Origin: Perna viridis
Taxonomy: Eukaryota
Length of the DNA stretch: 64,000 bases
Direction of reading: 5' to 3'
Assembly: GCA_037379345.1 (NCBI GenBank)
Contig: CM074512.1
Span: 36,642,001 to 36,706,000 of the forward strand
The number at the start of each line of letters is the position of its first letter. The stretch's first letter is position 1. This document shows, piece by piece, positions 46,416-63,448 of the stretch. A model generated the notes under the pieces. That model made no database searches and was not told where the DNA came from. It was given only the letters and a program-made list of their open reading frames with translations. A program made the position numbers and the translations under genes.

Positions 46416-47220
46416 TCACTCATTCATCTCTAAATCGTACTCGAAAACTTCCACTTGAGTTTCCATATACTCAGAACCACCATCACTACTACTCTCATCC
46501 TCTTCGTCATTCGCCTCTCCCTCTTCGTCGCTTGTCGCCTCCTCTCCTGTAAGATCGACAACAGTTGTATCTTTCTCTGTTGTTGTCACACGGTCGTCCT
46601 TAATTTGCATGGAAAAATGTAGGTGTCATTGTTTCCTCATCTTTCTGTTCAGGCGTTGTCTGAATCCCTTCACTTTTCAATGTGGTTATCTTTGGGTCAG
46701 CAACCCAAGATGAAGATAGAGTATTAACAGTCCCATCGGGAAAAACGACCTTTTCCTCCTCTTTTACGCAACTATAACCGTAACGAATTACTGTCCTAAC
46801 GTAATTGTTATTTGTTATTGCTTGTCTTCTAATTTGTTCCAAAGCTTTAGCTTCTGGAGCCTCACTAAAGGAACTGGGAGGGGCAAGAAACCGAGGTTGG
46901 TTCTTGCCCTCCCGTATGATATCTGAATTAGGCACAGCCAAATGAATGGAGTCCCATCCTCCTTGCATTGTCCGTTCCTCGTGAACGAGAGATATGTTCA
47001 TTGTGCCTGCGTTAGCGCATGTAGGTGGTTCTTTCACTTGCGACATCTGGCGGTTGAATGCATTGTTGGAGGTCAATTCTTTTCTGTGAGGGTTTGACGT
47101 CAATGGAGGTGGCAAATGATTAATACCCTCCGTACAAATGTCTAGTACTACTGGTTCATCTAGAATTTCTGGTGCCGTAGCAACCTGTGTTTCATCACTG
47201 ATGATATGATTCGGCATCAT
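46416..47220 (-). pseudogene. Unknown intronless ORF (~270 aa) split by a 1-nt frameshift, with an acidic C-terminus
   Basis: The 206-aa and 64-aa ORFs overlap at 46600-46610; removing one T from the minus-strand T5 run (~46613-46617) fuses them (TPTFSMQIKDD..). No family recognised. Confidence 0.45.
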
Positions 47221-48369
47221 TTGAAACAGGTTAGTTGTTTTATTTTTCGAACGCGCAAACCTACTTAACGTGCTTTTTCAAGGTTCCGATGTGTCTAGGA
47301 TATGCCCAGTCTCTCTGTCGCTCAACTCTTAATGCAAATATAATGACATCTGAAAATACAACATGAACGAAGCATTCAGAATCATATCTAAGAAAGACAG
47401 GATCAGCCAGTGACAAGAGAAACAGCATGTTTATTTATTTTCCGGATTACCTATAGAAATTATCTGTAAACCAATTTACTATACATCACTGCGCTTACTG
47501 TACGGTATACTCTACACATTTAACTAGATAGGCTTAAATAAACAATTCTATAAATTGCAAATAGCCCAGAGCGACTAATCAGTGGTCATCGGAGTTTTTA
47601 TTATCATAAGGCAAAATGCATGTATATTAGCGCAGCAGGATAAATATAACAACAATGCGTACTAAAGCAATCGCAAATAACATACATATGGTCATACATT
47701 GCATTTCAAAATACAAATAATGTGTAGCGAAGCATTCTATATCACGGACGGCCTCGCTGGTTAGGAAAACCACAAAACCCAACTGCAAGGTTGTGCAACT
47801 ACTTTATATGTAGGAAAGTTCTGTGGAAACCTGTGTCCATACCCAATGCGAAAGACTGTACCAAGAGTTATACCTGGACGAAGTATTAGTTTAGAATATT
47901 GGAAAACATAAAATAAAATAAATTATATATCTATAAAACATATTTATCAAATATTATTGAAAAATGTATAATCATAAGCAAAGACAAAATTATATCTACT
48001 ATATTTTTACTGCTGAAACTTGAGTGTTGACCAGTCAGGTGTAGGCTAGAAAGTGATTACAAAGGAAATATTCTACTATACTATCGAAACGTCGGAAATT
48101 ATACTTATTGGTTACAAGAAAAAAATCATAAGGCATGATCACCACTCATTATATGAAGCTTATTTAATAAGAAAGCGGGGTTTAGTACTGGGTAAAGTTT
48201 TAAATGTTAAAATGGCAAAAACATGAAAACAGGGGACAGAAGAGACGATCCACGTATACATGTTAACAAGGGAATAAAATACAATAACACACAAACTTCG
48301 TATAATAAAAACAAGAATGCACACTTTAAACTAAAGCAATTGTAAAATAAACTTCCACAAAATCAGTAA

Positions 48370-53865: not shown

Positions 53866-56800
53866 TCATCCATGTCTTTTTTGGGTCAAGTATCTTTTCT
53901 TTTTCTCAATCATACGTTTCTCCTTTTCCATCAAATAACGCTTCTTTTTCTCCATCATTTTCATTTTCTGTGCATGTCTGTCCATCATTTTGTGTTTTCG
54001 GATCAAGTTCTGTTTTTTAGCAAGGTTACGGTCGTTAATGTGTCTCCTCAAAGAGTTATGAAGGTTCTTCCTGGACATGTGCATTGCTTTCAACGCGGTT
54101 CGGACGACATTGTTGTTTCTTTGCGCGTGTCTCTTGCTCCTTGATTTCAGTTCTTTTAATAGTCTCTGAAACTCTTTCAGCATTGCTCGTCTACCTAATA
54201 GAGGTGAAATTGAAAAAGTTGGTCAGCATAGCAAATAGTTGACAAATGTTTGATCCTATTCGGAAATTCAGAAATCTTAAAAGTAGCGTATTACTTTATT
54301 ACCATCCCTTAGGTTTATACATGTATTACTTCATTACCATCCCTTAGGTTTATATATGTGTATTACTTCATTACCATCCCTTAGGTTTATGCATGTATTA
54401 CTTCATTACCATCCCTTAGGTTTATATATGTGTATTACTTCATTACCATCCCTTAGGTTTATACATGTATTACTTCATTACCATCCCTTAGGTTTATATA
54501 TGTGTATTACTTCATTACCATCCCTTAGGTTTATACATGTATTACTTCATTACCATCCCTTAGGTTTATATACATGTATTACTTCATTACCATCCCTTAG
54601 GTTTAATTCCAAGATTCATGTCTACATCATATATCATACTAAATGCTTTTAGCATCATAAGACGCTTGGTATATTAGGTTGTCTTTTTGTCTCTTTTTTA
54701 TCGTAATGTTAAGAATTATACTAAAGGATACTCTAGGTACCACTATATCCAACTCTGATTGATTGTCCATTCGGTTGGACTTTCTGACGCTAATCACTTT
54801 AACTTGAGAGCAAATGGGCAACACATAACGTGGCTTTCCTCGCCATTATAAATAATGGCCTAGGAACTTGACTTTCCACATAAAAAAATCAAAAAGCGTC
54901 TTCACTTCTTTTAAAGGATCGATCCACTTAAAGGATTGAAAGATGTTTATTGTAGAGGGCTCGCAAGTGTGTTACGACAAAAAAAAAACGGGCGTTATTG
55001 TCAGCATACACATATTTCACAATTTCATAGTCGAGATTGGTTAAATCTTTCCTGATGAAAACTTACTTGGAGAAGGGTTATTACAGTTAGCTTCATCAGA
55101 CCTATCTGGACAGTCCGTAAACCCGTCACATTTCTCTGAGGCCTGGATACACAGAGTGTTGTCAGTACATCTTACCATTGTGGCACTGGGACATCCTACA
55201 AATATTTTTGTATGAAGTACTGCTGAACAGTTCTACCCAGGAAAATGGTAATTAAATTGGTAATGCGTTATCAACCACTTGGCACACTTTGAGTCATGAT
55301 TTGTTCACTATTTGCAATGTATGGTTTTTGTGGGTACATTTGGTTCAAATAATAGCTTATAGGTATAGTTGCATAAAATATTGTTTCTAATGAAGAGTAA
55401 AACTGCAAGACTTAAAGTCATGAATTTAAAATCAATTGTCGAACCCAGAAATAATCAAAACACAATTTTGAAAATACAGTTTCAACAAGAAAAATAAAAA
55501 AATCGATGAATTAGTACCCCACCAGCGTCTATTAATTAAATTCAACCTAAGGGGCTCGGGGAGAAATTTGACGTTTCAAACACACAAAAGATGGTGTATG
55601 TTTAAGAAAATGAAATCTTAACATGTTTATCGATTCCAGTTTCGCTTAAGAATCTGTATAATATATTGTGATATCAGACCATTACTACATACCACTACAA
55701 CCTTCTTCGTCACCCCCATTGGTACAATCAGGAATACCGTTACATTTTTCTGTGCTTGGTATACAGTAGCTGTTGGGACATTTAAATTGGTCACTGGAAC
55801 AAGTAGTAGCTGTAAGATCAGGAAGTTTACTTTTATAAGTGTAGGCTCTTCTTTTACTTAAAATTTTCTGTAACCTGTGCACTTGGGTGTGCACGTTGTT
55901 TTAAAATATCAATGCTAATTAATTCATGTCCACTACTAAAAGATATTTGATTTTTATGTTGAGGTATTGCTTTGTGTTTTAAAAAATGTTGTATTTTTGT
56001 TTTAGGTATAACGAATGAATTTAAACGAAATCTACTAAATAATTTTACTTTGTCAAATTGAAAGACCAATAATGTGACTTGTACATGTACTACACGTAAA
56101 ATATTTCACATTTCAACAATATTTTAGACAGAAATGGTAAGCTATTGACCTTCCAATCTACTATACTGTAATACATACCTTCACAATTTTGCTCATCATC
56201 TCCAGTAGGACAGTCCTGGTAACCATCACAACGGGCGGAGGTAGCAACGCAGGTTACGCCATCTGAACACTTGAATTTTCCGGCTGGACATGTAAAGCCT
56301 GTAAAATTGCGAAAAATTCATAAGGCACCAAAGCTAAGGGCGGATGAAATCAGATTTAAAAAGTACTATCTTTAAAAAAAAATATAGCCGACGCAAATTC
56401 TCGCTTTGTTAATACAAAAAAAAAACTGATTAAGATCTTATTTGGTGACCTGTGTGATCACTGTGCAATGTTTCGTATTTCAATTAATAAATTGGTTCAA
56501 CAAGTAAACAATTTCCAATTATTCAATATATATTTTTGTATGAAAGTGATTGAAATATTCGGGAACCAATGCCCCCAATGGAGCCTGAAATTACACGGTT
56601 GCTATCACAATCAAGCTTCATATGTTAGGTTGCGATGGTTAAGCATCATGGATGTCACTTGATGTCAAAACAAACTCAATATCGAGTGGAAAAAAATATT
56701 GAAACTCGGTTTTCGTCCACTTCTATATTTTGTTAGTCCCTTACTTTGACACATTGAAGCGTCCTCGTCAGCTCCGTCATCACAGTCTTTGAACATATCA

Positions 56801-59800
56801 CACTTCGTAGAATCATCACCGCAATCTGTAGAAAAAAATCAAATTGGTGAGTCAAAGAATAGAAACGAGGTAAACGCTTCTTTTCGCAAAAAGAAAATTG
56901 AGTAACCACATGGGCAATGCAAATTGATCAATATTTAACAAACTTTTGAAAATCCACTGGAAACTCCAAACTTACTTCCGCCGCCGCCGCCACCACCACC
57001 ACCACCACAATTGGCCTCATCTGAATTATCATTGCAGTCTTTATAGTCGTCACATTCATATGAACCCGGATAGCACGTGCCGTCACTGACACATTGGAAT
57101 TCACCGTCTTTGCAGCCACCTGGGGCTGGAGTTGTAGTTGCTGAAAAAAAAAATCGGTTGCGTTTCTAAACTAAATATTAGTAATTTTTTTTAAAAAAAA
57201 GTAGTATTGACTAGTTTTACCATCTGTTGTTTTGGGAACGAGAGGTATGATAATGGTTTATGTTTAATTTCTTTAATTGTCAAATCCCGGAAATAAAAAA
57301 GCACATGTACTTGCCACAGACGACACAAAAACTACAAAAAAACAAATTATCAAAACGGATGACGGAAAAATGCCATTTCCGGAAATAATAATTAGAAAAG
57401 AAATCGAATTCAACTCATGTATATAATAATAGTGGGAGTAAACATAAATATTGTTCATATGTATATGGGTTTGAATATACAATTTAGAATTTACCACATC
57501 TTAATCGCATACTCGTTAATGCTTATGTACACGAAGCCAAACATATTTGTTTTCGATTATATTTCATTATTTCTTTGTCTTTTAAATGCCAAAAATATCA
57601 AAGCTCCAGTATTTACTGGGACAATTGGCCTCATCTGAATTATCATTGCAGTCTTTATAGTCGTCACATTCATATGAACCCGGATAGCACGTGTCGTCAC
57701 TGACACATTGGAATTTGCCGTCTTTGCAGCCACCTGATTATGATGGTGGACGGCAAATTTAAAGTAAAGGTTAAGGTCATCATAACTGACAGCTATTCAA
57801 AATTATGAGACAGTGTCCAAAAGATCACACAGGTTCTCTGAGGTAGTTACGGACACATTGGTATAATGAAGGGCAGATTTCTAGCTAGAGAGCTACTAGT
57901 ATTTAAATTAATCACAAGCCTACCTAAATTTGTATTGATATTGCAACTGGTCAATTTCAACTAACTGTAAAATAATCAGCCTTAAATGATGTTGCACTGC
58001 AAAGGTTTTGAATACTAGTATAAAATTAAGAATCTACCTCATCTTAATCGCATACTCGTTTATGCTTATGTACACGAAGCCAAACATATTTGTTTTCGAT
58101 TATATTTCATTATTTCTTTGTCTTTTAAATGCCGAAAATATCAAAGCTCCAGTACTTACTGGGACAATTGGCCTCATCTGAATTATCATTGCAGTCTTTA
58201 TAGTCGTCACATTCATATGAACCCGGATAGCACGTGCCGTCACTGACACATTGGAATTCACCGTCTTTGCATCCACTAGGGGCAGGAGTTGTTGTGGATG
58301 CTGAAACAAAATGATCCAAGTGTTTCGCGTGAACCATAACAGATATATGTTTCATTCCATTCCCGACGACCGTTTAACAAAAGCAGAGTTGATGTTTCTT
58401 ATATTATGCATTTAAGTACATAATTTAAATGAAGCTTGATCAGTTTAAACTCGATTCAATTATTTCTAACAAATAGGCTTCTGGAACGGGGTTATATGGC
58501 TACAAGATTGAAGTCATCACTACAGAAGTTTTATGGTCGTCATCATGAACTCGTGGATCGTTATGGTGTATCCATCTGCACCAAGAAAACTTATTTATTC
58601 AACGTGTCATAGTTTTCTTTTCCTTTTCGTCTACACCGGACTTGACTTTTTATGAGCAACTCGGCGGGTTTTCCAGAAAAGCAGAGGACGCTTAGCCTAT
58701 CGGTGCACCTGGTCCATGCTTCCAGTTTTTAGTGGAGCCCGAGTTGCTCATTTGCTTTTGTTACTTGGTATGTATGATTTCAGTTACTTCATGCTCTAAG
58801 TTGTGTACGTCTGTTTTCTATTTCTGGTCTTTGTCACTGGATTACATTCTTTTGATTACTGCTATAACCTTGGTTCCCTTGATTATTCTTTGGTGATCTT
58901 GGATGAATTCAGATGTTTATAAAAGGCGGTTTGAGGTTATAGTTTGCTAGTTTTTTGCAAAAATAAAATCGTGTTTGTGAAACAAAAAGAGGACTCTAAC
59001 CCCGGAAACTTCCCAGGATCCGCCACTTTTGATTACTACATGAACCTAATTATGAAAATTGGGATCAACAATTGTAAATGATTTAGATATTATGCTCTAA
59101 TACTTACTGGGACAATTGGCCTCATCTGAATTATCATTGCAGTCTTTATAGTCGTCACATTCATATGAACCCGGATAGCACGTGCCGTCACTGACACATT
59201 GGAATTGGCCGTCTTTGCAGCCACCTGATTATGATGGTGGATGGCAAATTTAAAGTAAAGGTTAAGGTCATCATAACTGACAGCTATTCAAAATTATAAG
59301 ACAGTGTCCAAAAGATCACGCAGGTTCTCTGAGGTAGTTACGGACACATTGGTATAATAAAGGGCAGATTTCTAGCTAGAGAGCTACTAGTATTTAAATT
59401 ACTCACAAGTCTAACTTAATTTGTATTGATATTGCAACTGGTCAATTTCAACTAACTGTAAAATAATCAGCCTTAAATACTGTTGCACTACAAAGGTTTT
59501 GAATACTAGTAGAATAAAATTAAGAATTGATCTCATCTTAATCGCATACTCGTTAATGCTTACGTACACGAAGCTAAACAGATTTGTTTTCGATTATATT
59601 TCATTCTTTTTGTGTCTTTTAAATGCCAAAAAATATCAAAGCTCCAGTACTTACTGGGACAATTGGCCTCATCTGAATTGTCATTGCAGTCTTTATAGTC
59701 GTCACATTCATATGAACCCGGATAGCACGTGCCGTCACTGACACATTGGAATTCACCGTCTTTGCATCCACTAGGGGCAGGAGTTGTTGTGGATGCTGAA

Positions 59801-62800
59801 ACAAAATGATCCAAGTGTTTCGCGTGAACCATAACAGATATATGTTTCATTCCATTCCCGACGACCGTTTAACAAAAGCAGAGTTGATGTTTCTTATATT
59901 ATGCATTTAAGTACATAATTTAAATGAAGCTTGATCAGTTTAAACTCGATTCAATTATTTCTAACAAATAGGCTTCTGGAACGGGGTTATATGGCTACAA
60001 GATTGAAGTCATCACTACAGAAGTTTTATGGTCGTCATCATGAACTCGTGGATCGTTATGGTGTATCCATCTGCACCAAGAAAACTTATTTATTCAACGT
60101 GTCATAGTTTTCTTTTCCTTTTCGTCTACACCGGACTTGACTTTTTATGAGCAACTCGGCGGGTTTTCCAGAAAAGCAGAGGACGCTTAGCCTATCGGTG
60201 CACCTGGTCCATGCTTCCAGTTTTTAGTGGAGCCCGAGTTGCTCATTTGCTTTTGTTACTTGGTATGTATGATTTCAGTTACTTCATGCTCTAAGTTGTG
60301 TACGTCTGTTTTCTATTTCTGGTCTTTGTCACTGGATTACATTCTTTTGATTACTGCTATAACCTTGGTTCCCTTGATTATTCTTTGGTGATCTTGGATG
60401 AATTCAGATGTTTATAAAAGGCGGTTTGAGGTTATAGTTTGCTAGTTTTTTGCAAAAATAAAATCGTGTTTGTGAAACAAAAAGAGGACTCTAACCCCGG
60501 AAACTTCCCAGGATCCGCCACTTTTGATTACTACATGAACCTAATTATGAAAATTGGGATCAACAATTGTAAATGATTTAGATATTATGCTCTAATACTT
60601 ACTGGGACAATTGGCCTCATCTGAATTATCATTGCAGTCTTTATAGTCGTCACATTCATATGAACCCGGATAGCACGTGCCGTCACTGACACATTGGAAT
60701 TGGCCGTCTTTGCAGCCACCTGATTATGATGGTGGATGGCAAATTTAAAGTAAAGGTTAAGGTCATCATAACTGACAGCTATTCAAAATTATAAGACAGT
60801 GTCCAAAAGATCACGCAGGTTCTCTGAGGTAGTTACGGACACATTGGTATAATAAAGGGCAGATTTCTAGCTAGAGAGCTACTAGTATTTAAATTACTCA
60901 CAAGTCTAACTTAATTTGTATTGATATTGCAACTGGTCAATTTCAACTAACTGTAAAATAATCAGCCTTAAATACTGTTGCACTACAAAGGTTTTGAATA
61001 CTAGTAGAATAAAATTAAGAATTGATCTCATCTTAATCGCATACTCGTTAATGCTTACGTACACGAAGCTAAACAGATTTGTTTTCGATTATATTTCATT
61101 CTTTTTGTGTCTTTTAAATGCCAAAAAATATCAAAGCTCCAGTACTTACTGGGACAATTGGCCTCATCTGAATTGTCATTGCAGTCTTTATAGTCGTCAC
61201 ATTCATATGAACCCGGATAGCACGTGCCGTCACTGACACATTGGAATTCACCGTCTTTGCATCCACTAGGGGCAGGAGTTGTTGTGGATGCTGAAACAAA
61301 ATGATCCAAGTGTTTCGCGTGAACCATAACAGATATATGTTTCATTCCATTCCCGACGACCGTTTAACAAAAGCAGAGTTGATGTTTCTTATATTATGCA
61401 TTTAAGTACAAAATTTAAATGAAGCTTGATCAGTTTAAACTCGATTCAATTATTTCTAACAAATAGGCTTCTGGAACGGGGTTATATGGCTACAAGATTG
61501 AAGTCATCACTACAGAAGTTTTATGGTCGTCATCATGAACTCGTGGATCGTTATGGTGTATCCATCTGCACCAAGAAAACTTATTTATTCAACGTGTCAT
61601 AGTTTTCTTTTCCTTTTCGTCTACCCCAGACTTGACTTTTTATGAGCAACTCGGCGGGTTTTCCAGAAAAGCAGAGGACGCTTAGCCTATCGGTGCACCT
61701 GGTCCATGCTTCCAGTTTTTAGTGGAGTCCGAGTTGCTCATTTGCTTTTGTTACTTGGTATGTATGATTTCAGTTACTTCATGCTCTAAGTTGTGTACGT
61801 CTGTTTTCTATTTCTGGTCTTTGTCACTGGATTACATTCTTTTGATTACTGCTATAACCTTGGTTCCCTTGATTATTCTTTGGTGATCTTGGATGAATTC
61901 AGATGTTTATAAAAGGCGGTTTGAGGTTATAGTTTGCTAGTCTTTTGCAAAAATAAAATCGTGTTTGTGAAACAAAAAGAGGACTCTAACCCCGGAAACT
62001 TCCCAGGATCCGCCACTTTTGATTACTACATGAACCTAATTATGAAAATTTGGATCAACAATTGTAAATGATTTAGATATTATGCTTAAAAGGGATTATT
62101 AAAATGCAGTAAACAAAAAGTCAATGTTATTTATTTTCATATCTTTGTGCCCGTTGTTAACTTTTCCTTAAATATCTTCTCAGAAAATCGCTCAGTGGAT
62201 TTATATCAAATTTGCATTGTCCCCAGCATCCTTGCCGTATCTAAAACTTATTTCGATTATGCAGATCAAAGGTAAACATGGCCGCTGTTGCTATTTTTGC
62301 AGCACATGGGTCAGGTCACCAATTTCTACATATATTCAAAAACTATTAAAGATATTAGCAAATAAATGTGACCGTCCTTCAGCTTGAAAAACTTTATACA
62401 AGTCTCTGTTTGGTTGAAGTTGTACAACGATTACGCAAAATATCGAAATAAACTGTGATTGTTGAAATTATCCTTATGACAAGGCCTACAGAAGTCATAA
62501 ACATTTAGTCTTAAATAGTGGGAGTAAATGTAAATATTATATTGCTGTACTGCCTAGATTTCAATTGATTATACAATTTAGAATTTACCTGATCTTAACG
62601 CATTCTCGTTAATGATTATGCGCGCAAAGCTAAACAAATATGTTCTCAATCATATTTGTTTTATCGTTCGTCTCTTCCAAAGCTCCAGTACTTACTTCCA
62701 CAATTGGCCTCGTCTGAATTATCATCGCAGTCTTTATAGTTGTCGCATTCAAATGAACCCGGATGACACGTGCCGTCACTGACGCATTGAAATTCTCCAT

Positions 62801-63448
62801 CTTCACATTGTGATGGTCTAGGTGTTGGAGTTGTGTCTTAATTACAATAAAAATGGAGGAGAAGGATAATATATCAATCGTAATGCTTTATACAGATTCA
62901 GTTATAATCACTTGTTCATAATTTAAGAATAAATTTTCCAGTCGTCTCCAGTTCAGTATGGCGTTTTAACTCTCAGTAGGTCATCTAAAAACTTTCTTAT
63001 TACACTTAGTTCGATTCTCAAGTTACGAATTGCAAACGATAAAGATGTACATTAAAATCTAGTAAGCTTTCTAAGATTAATTCTACTTTGAAACAACATC
63101 TTTCTATGACATTTATTTGTGCACTTTGTTTTAAGAAATGTTTGGGGGCAATGTTTGCCTATACATTTTGTATTTTCAAAGTTGAACAGTTTCATGCCTT
63201 TTTCAAAGGGTTCATATTCAAAATTTCAAATTTTGTAATAGCTGCTGTGACTCAAACCATATCACTGAAGTGAGGTTCAAAGTGTCATGATCTTGCAAAA
63301 ACGGGCTGAGTTTAATACATACCATCACATCCACATTCGTCACTTCCGTCCATGCAATCAGCTATGCCATTGCATCTTCCATTTATGTCAATACAAGTCA
63401 TATCTTTACATTGAAATTCATTAACTGTATCACACATATCAGTCTCTT
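53866..63448 (-). CDS. Gene L2: multi-LDLa protein (13 modules visible) with a very basic C-terminal tail and no TM; start exon not found
   Basis: Phase-1 exons 63448-63323, 62836-62696, 61290-61150, 60719-60603, 59795-59655, 59224-59108, 58300-58160, 57733-57617, 57140-56976, 56825-56745, 56298-56179, 55809-55693, 55195-55067, each encoding one LDLa (e.g. [36 protein letters not shown]). Terminal exon 54194-53866 reads [26 protein letters not shown]. Confidence 0.88.
54299..54604. repeat. Minisatellite with alternating 35/37-bp monomers (72-bp higher-order unit), 9 cores
   Basis: CCATCCCTTAGG starts at 54302, 54337, 54374, 54409, 54446, 54481, 54518, 54553 and 54590. Confidence 0.93.
58466..58890 (+). 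mobile_element. 5'-truncated Naiad-type Penelope element, copy in unit 1
   Basis: [48 protein letters not shown] followed by the 3' tail; no C-terminal GIY-YIG after the RT. Confidence 0.82.
59961..60385 (+). mobile_element. Same PLE fragment, unit 2
   Basis: Copy of 58466-58890 at +1495. Confidence 0.82.
61456..61880 (+). mobile_element. Same PLE fragment, unit 3
   Basis: Copy of 58466-58890 at +2990, with a few substitutions. Confidence 0.82.

What the first reader, a model, noticed from the sequence alone, without database searches (positions are those of the whole stretch)
57617..62086. Ongoing 'exon accordion': a 1495-bp unit adding two LDLa modules (86 aa) per copy
Seen: three units whose introns differ at only a few positions. 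Each adds 141+117 = 258 nt of phase-1/1 exons, so any copy number stays in frame. Eight consecutive modules are near-identical. A PLE fragment that inserted before the amplification is copied in every unit. Inference: valency of one LDLa specificity is being changed by unequal crossover, so protein-length alleles are expected; valency would matter for an avidity- or assembly-driven function.
Basis: partly seen in the sequence, partly recalled or inferred. Interest (0 to 1): 0.7.

Follow-up and report, generated by a model that had tools for sequence, protein, structure and literature searches.

The report
Young exon array in mussel protein
A secreted mussel protein gene carries three tandem copies of a two-exon block, the middle one an exact splice of its two neighbours, so the gene likely gains and loses binding modules by unequal crossover, a known process seen here in an unstudied protein family.

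Summary
The array is real in this assembly: three units (1491, 1495, 1495 bp; 57603-62086), each with a 141-nt and a 117-nt phase-1 LDLa exon. The gene is a secreted mytilid protein of 845 aa: signal peptide, FAMeT domain, 12 LDLa modules plus a half module, basic helical tail. The middle unit is an exact recombinant of its neighbours with no private change, so the third copy is very young (segregating allele likely; assembly duplication not excluded). Five Mytilus orthologs have four central modules, differ in which one is doubled, and do not share this species' module sequence: repeated duplication and homogenisation. Only the central modules keep the aromatic residue of the LDLa lysine-binding pocket, which supports the valency idea. 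Corrections: unit 1 differs from unit 2 at 32 columns, and the 117-nt exon has lost its linker and native acceptor to a second repeat, so it may be skipped and a unit may add one module, not two. One RNA run shows the gene spliced, but not the joints inside the array. Polymorphism is untested. Known kind of process (like LPA KIV-2); uncharacterised family.

The parts
57603..59093 (-). Unit U1 (1491 bp): exon B1, intron b1, exon A1, intron c1
59094..60588 (-). Unit U2 (1495 bp): exact recombinant, left part = U3, right part = U1; crossover interval 59681-59915
   Evidence: U1 and U2 share two derived changes inside the retroelement piece
60589..62086 (-). Unit U3 (1495 bp plus 3-bp GCT microhomology at the outer breakpoint)
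63323..63448 (-). Exon E3: first LDLa module (stable flank; no pocket aromatic). Upstream exons E1 (signal peptide, L001:2296-2392) and E2 (FAMeT domain, L001:806-1264) lie beyond the window end
62696..62836 (-). Exon E4: central LDLa module 1 (86% to the others; Phe at pocket site)
61150..61290 (-). Exon A3 (141 nt): Thr/Pro linker + LDLa
60603..60719 (-). Exon B3 (117 nt): LDLa without linker, cryptic acceptor; inclusion not shown
59655..59795 (-). Exon A2 (141 nt)
59108..59224 (-). Exon B2 (117 nt)
58160..58300 (-). Exon A1 (141 nt)
57617..57733 (-). Exon B1 (117 nt): two amino-acid changes and a weaker donor (+5 G to A) against B2/B3
56976..57140 (-). Exon T: last central LDLa module + 10-Gly spacer
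56745..56825 (-). Exon P: half LDLa module (also in Mytilus orthologs)
55067..56298 (-). Three stable flanking LDLa exons (56298-56179, 55809-55693, 55195-55067); spliced in run X11
53866..54194 (-). Last coding exon: 108-aa basic tail (net +30), conserved K-R site, predicted single helix
58465..58891 (+). 3' fragment of a Naiad-type Penelope-like element in intron c (also 59960-60386 and 61455-61881)
59228..59462 (.). Half of a foldback-type dispersed repeat that begins right at the acceptor of exon B (also 57737-57971 and 60723-60957)

Best explanation
This is an intragenic tandem array in a secreted mytilid gene whose middle unit is an exact recombinant of its neighbours, likely made by a very recent unequal crossover and likely one allele of a length polymorphism that changes the number of predicted lysine-binding LDLa modules. 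History (inferred): a four-module state (E4, A, B, T), as in Mytilus; a first duplication of the A+B block joined at a GCT microhomology a few bases from the B donor; later homogenisation of the A/c half; then one crossover within 59681-59915 that made three units from two. Every exon is phase 1-1, so any count, and any skipping, stays in frame (shown). Function (inferred, about 0.4): a soluble multivalent cross-linker of an extracellular secretion. The calcium-bound central modules would grip lysines of basic partners, and the cationic helical tail, perhaps cut off at the conserved K-R site, would bind polyanions. Each unit adds at least one module (A) and two only if B is spliced in (about 0.45).
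For: Recombinant U2 and clustered differences, p 5e-14 and 0.008. Three divergence levels: 5.1% in the B/b half, 0.8% in the c intron, 0 in U2. Run X11 differs from the window at 11 of 1886 bases, so 7-9 differences would be expected over one unit at allelic distance; none are seen. The eight central modules form one clade (100/98) apart from Mytilus modules, while the three C-terminal flanking modules group by position across species. All 5 Mytilus species have four central modules; the first type is doubled in trossulus and coruscus, the second in edulis, galloprovincialis and californianus. Aromatic residue two before Cys4 in 8 of 8 central modules here and 20 of 20 in Mytilus, and in 0 of 5 flanking positions in each of the six proteins; PMC8239462 (passages) ties this residue to lysine binding and doublets to avidity. 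Signal peptide by inspection, no hydrophobic stretch after it. Gene is transcribed and spliced in X11. Both b-intron types occur outside this assembly: b1-type in X11, b2/b3-type in ENA protein P0161.
Against: A 1730-bp perfect match is also what an assembly duplication gives, and no DNA run could be laid. No A-to-B, B-to-A or A-to-A joint is listed for X11; the one joint into T has a 28-nt side that is identical for A and B. Rough bin arithmetic gives A-linker depth about 200, T-start 190 and shared core 456, closer to one A than to three (contig depths are a poor measure). Three raw RNA runs have no exon coverage. B has a T-poor acceptor (5 T in 20 nt, against 10 for A and T; E2 also has 5) at a repeat breakpoint. 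The pocket residue is Tyr/Phe here, not Trp, which PMC8239462 links to weaker binding; the middle position between Cys4 and Cys5 is Tyr, not the acidic residue I recall for RAP-binding modules. Mytilus keeps four modules in all five species, so eight may be neutral drift. No ligand or tissue is known.
Confidence: 0.6

Rival explanations
1. The third unit is an assembly duplication; the true allele has two units, and only the older duplication is real.
For: 58186-59915 matches 59681-61410 with no mismatch; removing 1495 bp there leaves a clean two-unit gene. X11 contigs give no joint that needs several units.
Against: 4.5 kb is short against long reads and the 164 kb read here has no N (read type unknown). 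A mis-join of two haplotypes should carry about 7-9 allelic differences, and there are none. The two-unit step and the Mytilus doublings show that the locus does duplicate.
Confidence: 0.17
2. The array is real, but exon B is a mostly skipped remnant: a repeat replaced its linker and acceptor, so each unit adds 47 aa (one module), with B as a minor in-frame cassette.
For: B is homologous to T up to the exon-internal CAG, and the repeat half starts at the next base in all three units. B1 has two amino-acid changes and a weakened donor, while A copies differ by one silent change. No B-start contig or A-to-B joint is listed in X11. RefSeq models of Mytilus orthologs include isoforms that skip central modules.
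Against: B keeps six Cys, the calcium ligands, the frame and a GT donor although the repeat is old (81-84% to its family). B restores the four-module count of Mytilus. Contigs show presence, not absence.
Confidence: 0.45
3. Copy number is real but neutral: in-frame exons and near-identical introns let the array drift, and valency is of no consequence.
For: Symmetric phase makes every product viable. Copies are too young to show selection. No function is known.
Against: In six species the duplicated modules are always among those with the pocket aromatic residue, never the flanking ones; but adjacency and mutual similarity alone could give this.
Confidence: 0.35

Closest known systems
Human LPA kringle IV type-2 copy-number array
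   Same: Two exons per unit, near-identical units including introns, in-frame addition of ligand-type modules to a secreted protein (PMC7613587 passages; PMC6314250 listing).
   Different: There two exons make one kringle in a 5.5-kb unit and more than 40 isoforms are documented; here each exon is a whole LDLa module, the unit is 1.5 kb, three copies are seen and polymorphism is untested.
Mytilus orthologs (XP_071164950, XP_076097036, XP_063429964, XP_052104809, CAC5363644; auto-named LRP1B-, LRP2- or egg-1-like)
   Same: Signal peptide, FAMeT, first LDLa, central block with Thr/Pro linkers, half module, three LDLa, basic tail with K-R; 60-71% identity in flanking modules, 25-33% in FAMeT and tail.
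   Different: Four central modules with Trp at the pocket site and mutual divergence, against eight nearly identical ones with Tyr/Phe; tail net charge +19 to +23 against +30.
LDLR/LRP ligand-binding clusters (complement-type repeats binding RAP lysines)
   Same: Pfam PF00057 modules with calcium ligands and pocket aromatic residue in tandem.
   Different: No EGF, YWTD propeller or membrane anchor; modules are near-identical, not diversified.
FAMeT-domain secreted proteins: sea-star footprint proteins, mussel shell-repair transcripts
   Same: FAMeT domain in a modular secreted protein (PMC9382459 and PMC8194122 passages).
   Different: Neither main text holds the term LDL; tissue and role of this gene are unknown.

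Membership tests
LDLa module (PF00057) | Pfam score above gathering cut-off, six Cys, acidic calcium motif | tested here: met
   35.8-45.9 bits against 24.1 for 8 of 9 exons scanned; the half module P has no hit
Lysine-binding (RAP-type) LDLa | Aromatic residue two before Cys4 | tested here: met
   Tyr/Phe in 8 of 8 central modules, absent in flanking ones; criterion from PMC8239462 passages
Lysine-binding (RAP-type) LDLa | Acidic residue midway between Cys4 and Cys5 (criterion recalled, from no call) | tested here: not met
   Tyr here, Ile/Val in Mytilus
Lysine-binding (RAP-type) LDLa | Measured calcium-dependent binding to a lysine ligand | not testable with these tools
   needs a binding assay
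LDLR/LRP endocytic receptors | EGF repeats, YWTD propellers, transmembrane helix | tested here: not met
   Ortholog P0006 has only PF00057 and PF12248; highest 19-residue hydropathy after the signal is 1.06. The LRP names in the databases do not fit.
Coding copy-number array of the LPA KIV-2 kind | Multi-exon unit repeated in frame with near-identical introns | tested here: met
Coding copy-number array of the LPA KIV-2 kind | Unit number varies between individuals | tested here: inconclusive
   Indirect only: youth of U2 and X11 contig depths; no DNA run was laid
Coding copy-number array of the LPA KIV-2 kind | All repeated exons reach the mRNA | tested here: inconclusive
   Entry into T from an A- or B-type end is seen; joints inside the array are not listed
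Naiad Penelope-like element (fragment in intron c) | C-terminal RT preceded by a CxC linker, no C-terminal endonuclease | tested here: met
   695-aa frame in L017 with CSC motif and weak RVT_1 hit, below cut-off; fragment 92% to its 3' end; definition in PMC8557442 passages
Naiad Penelope-like element (fragment in intron c) | N-terminal GIY-YIG endonuclease | not tested
   no full-length copy was sought
FAMeT domain (PF12248) | Pfam score above cut-off | tested here: met
   25.8 bits against 24.2; 66.3 in the Mytilus ortholog. Enzyme activity is not implied.

The most novel reading that the evidence does not exclude
A mussel-specific secreted polyampholyte whose valency is tuned at two levels, by segregating unit-number alleles and by a cassette exon that a transposon breakpoint created. 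Its acidic LDLa array would bind lysine-rich helices, its own cleavable tail or lysine-rich mussel secretions, to drive calcium-dependent assembly; the tail has gained charge along with the array (ratio near 3 to 1 in all six proteins).
Probability: 0.15. Interest if true: 0.7.

Novelty: new member of a known kind. Interest (0 to 1): 0.4.

Why it matters
The process is textbook, but the locus records several steps in readable form: microhomology duplication, partial homogenisation, a single exact crossover, and an exon reshaped by a repeat. It also brings out an unstudied mytilid protein family, mis-named as LRP in databases, in which only the predicted ligand-binding modules turn over. If size alleles segregate, they give a natural valency series that one PCR and one binding assay could test.

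Tried and rejected
No RNA holder was listed on record by the run search. Raw RNA runs X21-X23 (19-25% of each read) gave no exon coverage, so junction counts could not be made. No DNA run was laid, so unit number in other animals is open. Word-index search with the FAMeT exon among longer proteins found nothing; the HMMER library search found the orthologs. No paralog of the FAMeT exon or tail in the own genome. Atlas look-up of the Mytilus tail gave no usable hit. Complex prediction of a Mytilus LDLa doublet with its tail: no verdict, score 0.00 in two runs, alignments not used; neither for nor against. No linker micro-exon found in introns b2 or c2 by a simple scan. Literature searches and six accessions (0 papers) found no description of this protein; one mytilid shell-proteome paper has a single LDLa row that I could not match to it. 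No supplements were read; byssus, shell or mucus proteome tables could hold it. Earlier scan notes: none. Rejected: LRP-type receptor; separate tandem genes (one open frame, flanking exons single).
Full report
Observation. The window lies on contig C2 of a 723-Mb animal genome. Three head-to-tail units run from 57603 to 62086: U1 1491 bp, U2 and U3 1495 bp. U2 and U3 differ at 6 positions. U1 and U2 differ at 32 alignment columns, all in the first 583 bp, and at none in the last 908. The array and its junction occur at this locus only.

The gene. On the minus strand, 16 coding exons, each internal one bounded by AG and GT and all in phase 1, give one open frame of 845 aa (model built by hand). 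Order: signal peptide (by inspection); FAMeT domain, PF12248, 25.8 bits; one LDLa; eight central LDLa (E4, A3, B3, A2, B2, A1, B1, T); ten glycines; a half module; three LDLa; a 108-aa tail of net charge +30 against -92 for the LDLa region. The tail is predicted as one long helix (pLDDT 91, pTM 0.40, six-row alignment). There is no membrane segment. Seven central modules differ at no more than 2 of 36 residues; E4 is 86% identical.

Expression. Of four runs laid on 54620-59090, three raw RNA runs had no exon coverage. Run X11 (contigs, RNA by guess) covers the flanking exons at depth about 1520 against 6-13 in introns, with joints matching L13-L12, L12-L11, L11-P and P-T, and a loose end matching the tail exon. 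That contig stops 30 bases into the shared core, as expected if the core recurs in the RNA. A joint enters T from an exon end that is identical in A and B. No A-to-B, B-to-A or A-to-A joint is listed; 357 loose ends and 560 pieces were not shown. Rough arithmetic on bin depths gives about 200 for the A linker, 190 for the T start and 456 for the shared core. That is nearer one A than three, but contig depths are a poor measure and fall steeply towards the 5' side. Inclusion of all array exons is therefore not shown.

How the array grew. U2 is identical to U3 over 59094-59915 and to U1 over 59681-60588, so it is an exact recombinant with a 235-bp crossover interval and no private change. Inside the retroelement piece U1 and U2 share two changes where U3 keeps the family state in 5 of 5 family copies. 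X11 differs from the window at 11 of 1886 bases, so 7-9 differences would be expected over one unit at allelic distance (P of none below 0.001). The third unit is thus younger than ordinary alleles: a segregating allele, or an assembly duplication (about 0.17). Divergence is 5.1% in the B/b half, 0.8% in intron c and 0 for U2 (p 7e-7 for the first two), which implies at least three events (inference). The unit junction joins intron c to a point within ten bases of the B donor, at a GCT microhomology. A b1-type intron piece is in X11 and a b2/b3-type frame is in an unnamed ENA protein, so both types exist outside this assembly, though these may be alleles or paralogs.

Two repeats ride in each unit. 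The piece at 58465-58891 is the 3' end of an abundant RT element (39 further hits at 91-93% among 40 scored candidates; 136 protein matches). A 695-aa frame of the family has a CxC motif before a C-terminal RT, as described for Naiad elements in bivalves (PMC8557442, passages). New here: 59228-59462, and its twins in U1 and U3, is half of a foldback-type dispersed repeat, 81-84% like other copies. It starts at the base next to the acceptor CAG of exon B. That CAG corresponds to an exon-internal CAG in the linker of T. So B is a module that lost its linker and native acceptor and can only be spliced through a cryptic, T-poor site. B1 also has two amino-acid changes and a +5 donor change, while A copies differ by one silent base. 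A unit may add 47 aa rather than 86; both are in frame.

Relatives. A HMMER search with the FAMeT exon gave 13 hits, one of them a Mytilus edulis protein of the same architecture. A second search found orthologs in five Mytilus species and none with this full architecture elsewhere among the 120 of 305 hits listed. In a tree of 46 modules (36 columns; the first LDLa and the half module were not captured by the pattern; one duplicate edulis record left out) the three C-terminal modules group by position across species, while the eight central modules of the window form their own clade (100/98). Every Mytilus species has four central modules, but trossulus and coruscus double the first type (identical copies in coruscus) and edulis, galloprovincialis and californianus the second. 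One further edulis model lacks the central block and part of FAMeT and is fused to an RT piece, probably a bad model. Duplication and homogenisation of this block are therefore a standing trait of the family.

Mechanism. [quoted passage not shown] The aromatic residue is present in all central modules (8 of 8 here, 20 of 20 in Mytilus) and in none of the five flanking positions of any of the six proteins. The modules that multiply are thus the ones predicted to bind. Against this: Tyr/Phe replace Trp, and the middle acidic residue that I recall from RAP-binding modules is missing. The tail keeps an amphipathic start and an invariant K-R pair. FAMeT domains occur in sea-star adhesive proteins and mussel shell-repair transcripts with unknown role (PMC9382459, PMC8194122; passages). 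I favour a soluble multivalent cross-linker of an extracellular secretion, at about 0.4; ligand and tissue are unknown.

Comparison and verdict. The closest known system is the LPA KIV-2 array (PMC7613587, passages; PMC6314250, search listing). This works like it, but membership needs population data that I could not get. It is not an LRP receptor, whatever the database names say. Six searches, one of them by accession, found no account of the protein; supplements were not read. Observation confirmed, interpretation partly supported, new member of a known kind, interest 0.4.

Noticed in passing
window 42239-38800 (-): A second secreted LDLa gene just downstream: signal-peptide exon at 42239-42161 and four LDLa exons that pass Pfam; two carry Trp at the pocket site. 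Possible basic last exons near 32440-30760 were not resolved.
   Followed up: partly
window 53866-53940 (-): The tail ends in a short internal repeat rich in Lys, and is 10-12 aa longer and 7-11 charges more basic than in Mytilus; the ratio of array charge to tail charge stays near 3 in all six proteins (2.5-3.6).
   Followed up: partly
window 54288-54605: 35/37-bp minisatellite, about nine copies, in the last intron of the gene.
   Followed up: no
window 17950-18294: Two adjoining near-perfect minisatellites (59 bp x 4, 37 bp x 4) that share a core.
   Followed up: no
L010:3639-4262 (+2108): Another near-perfect duplication at a lag of 2108 bp, with exact runs of 186 and 364 bp.
   Followed up: no
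L003:4820-6550 (+): Intronless 577-aa frame that looks like lipase maturation factor 1 (label recalled, not tested).
   Followed up: no
L002:6401-7399 (-) and L004:8884-9762 (+): Two long frames with repeated Pro-Arg-rich motifs that look related to each other.
   Followed up: no
window 46603-47277 (-): 225-aa stop-free frame between the two LDLa genes with no Pfam hit; possibly part of a mobile element.
   Followed up: partly
L021-L029: The foldback repeat family has a constant arm and loop but a second arm of variable length: 3 of 9 fetched copies are full, 6 are halves. Its class was not determined.
   Followed up: partly
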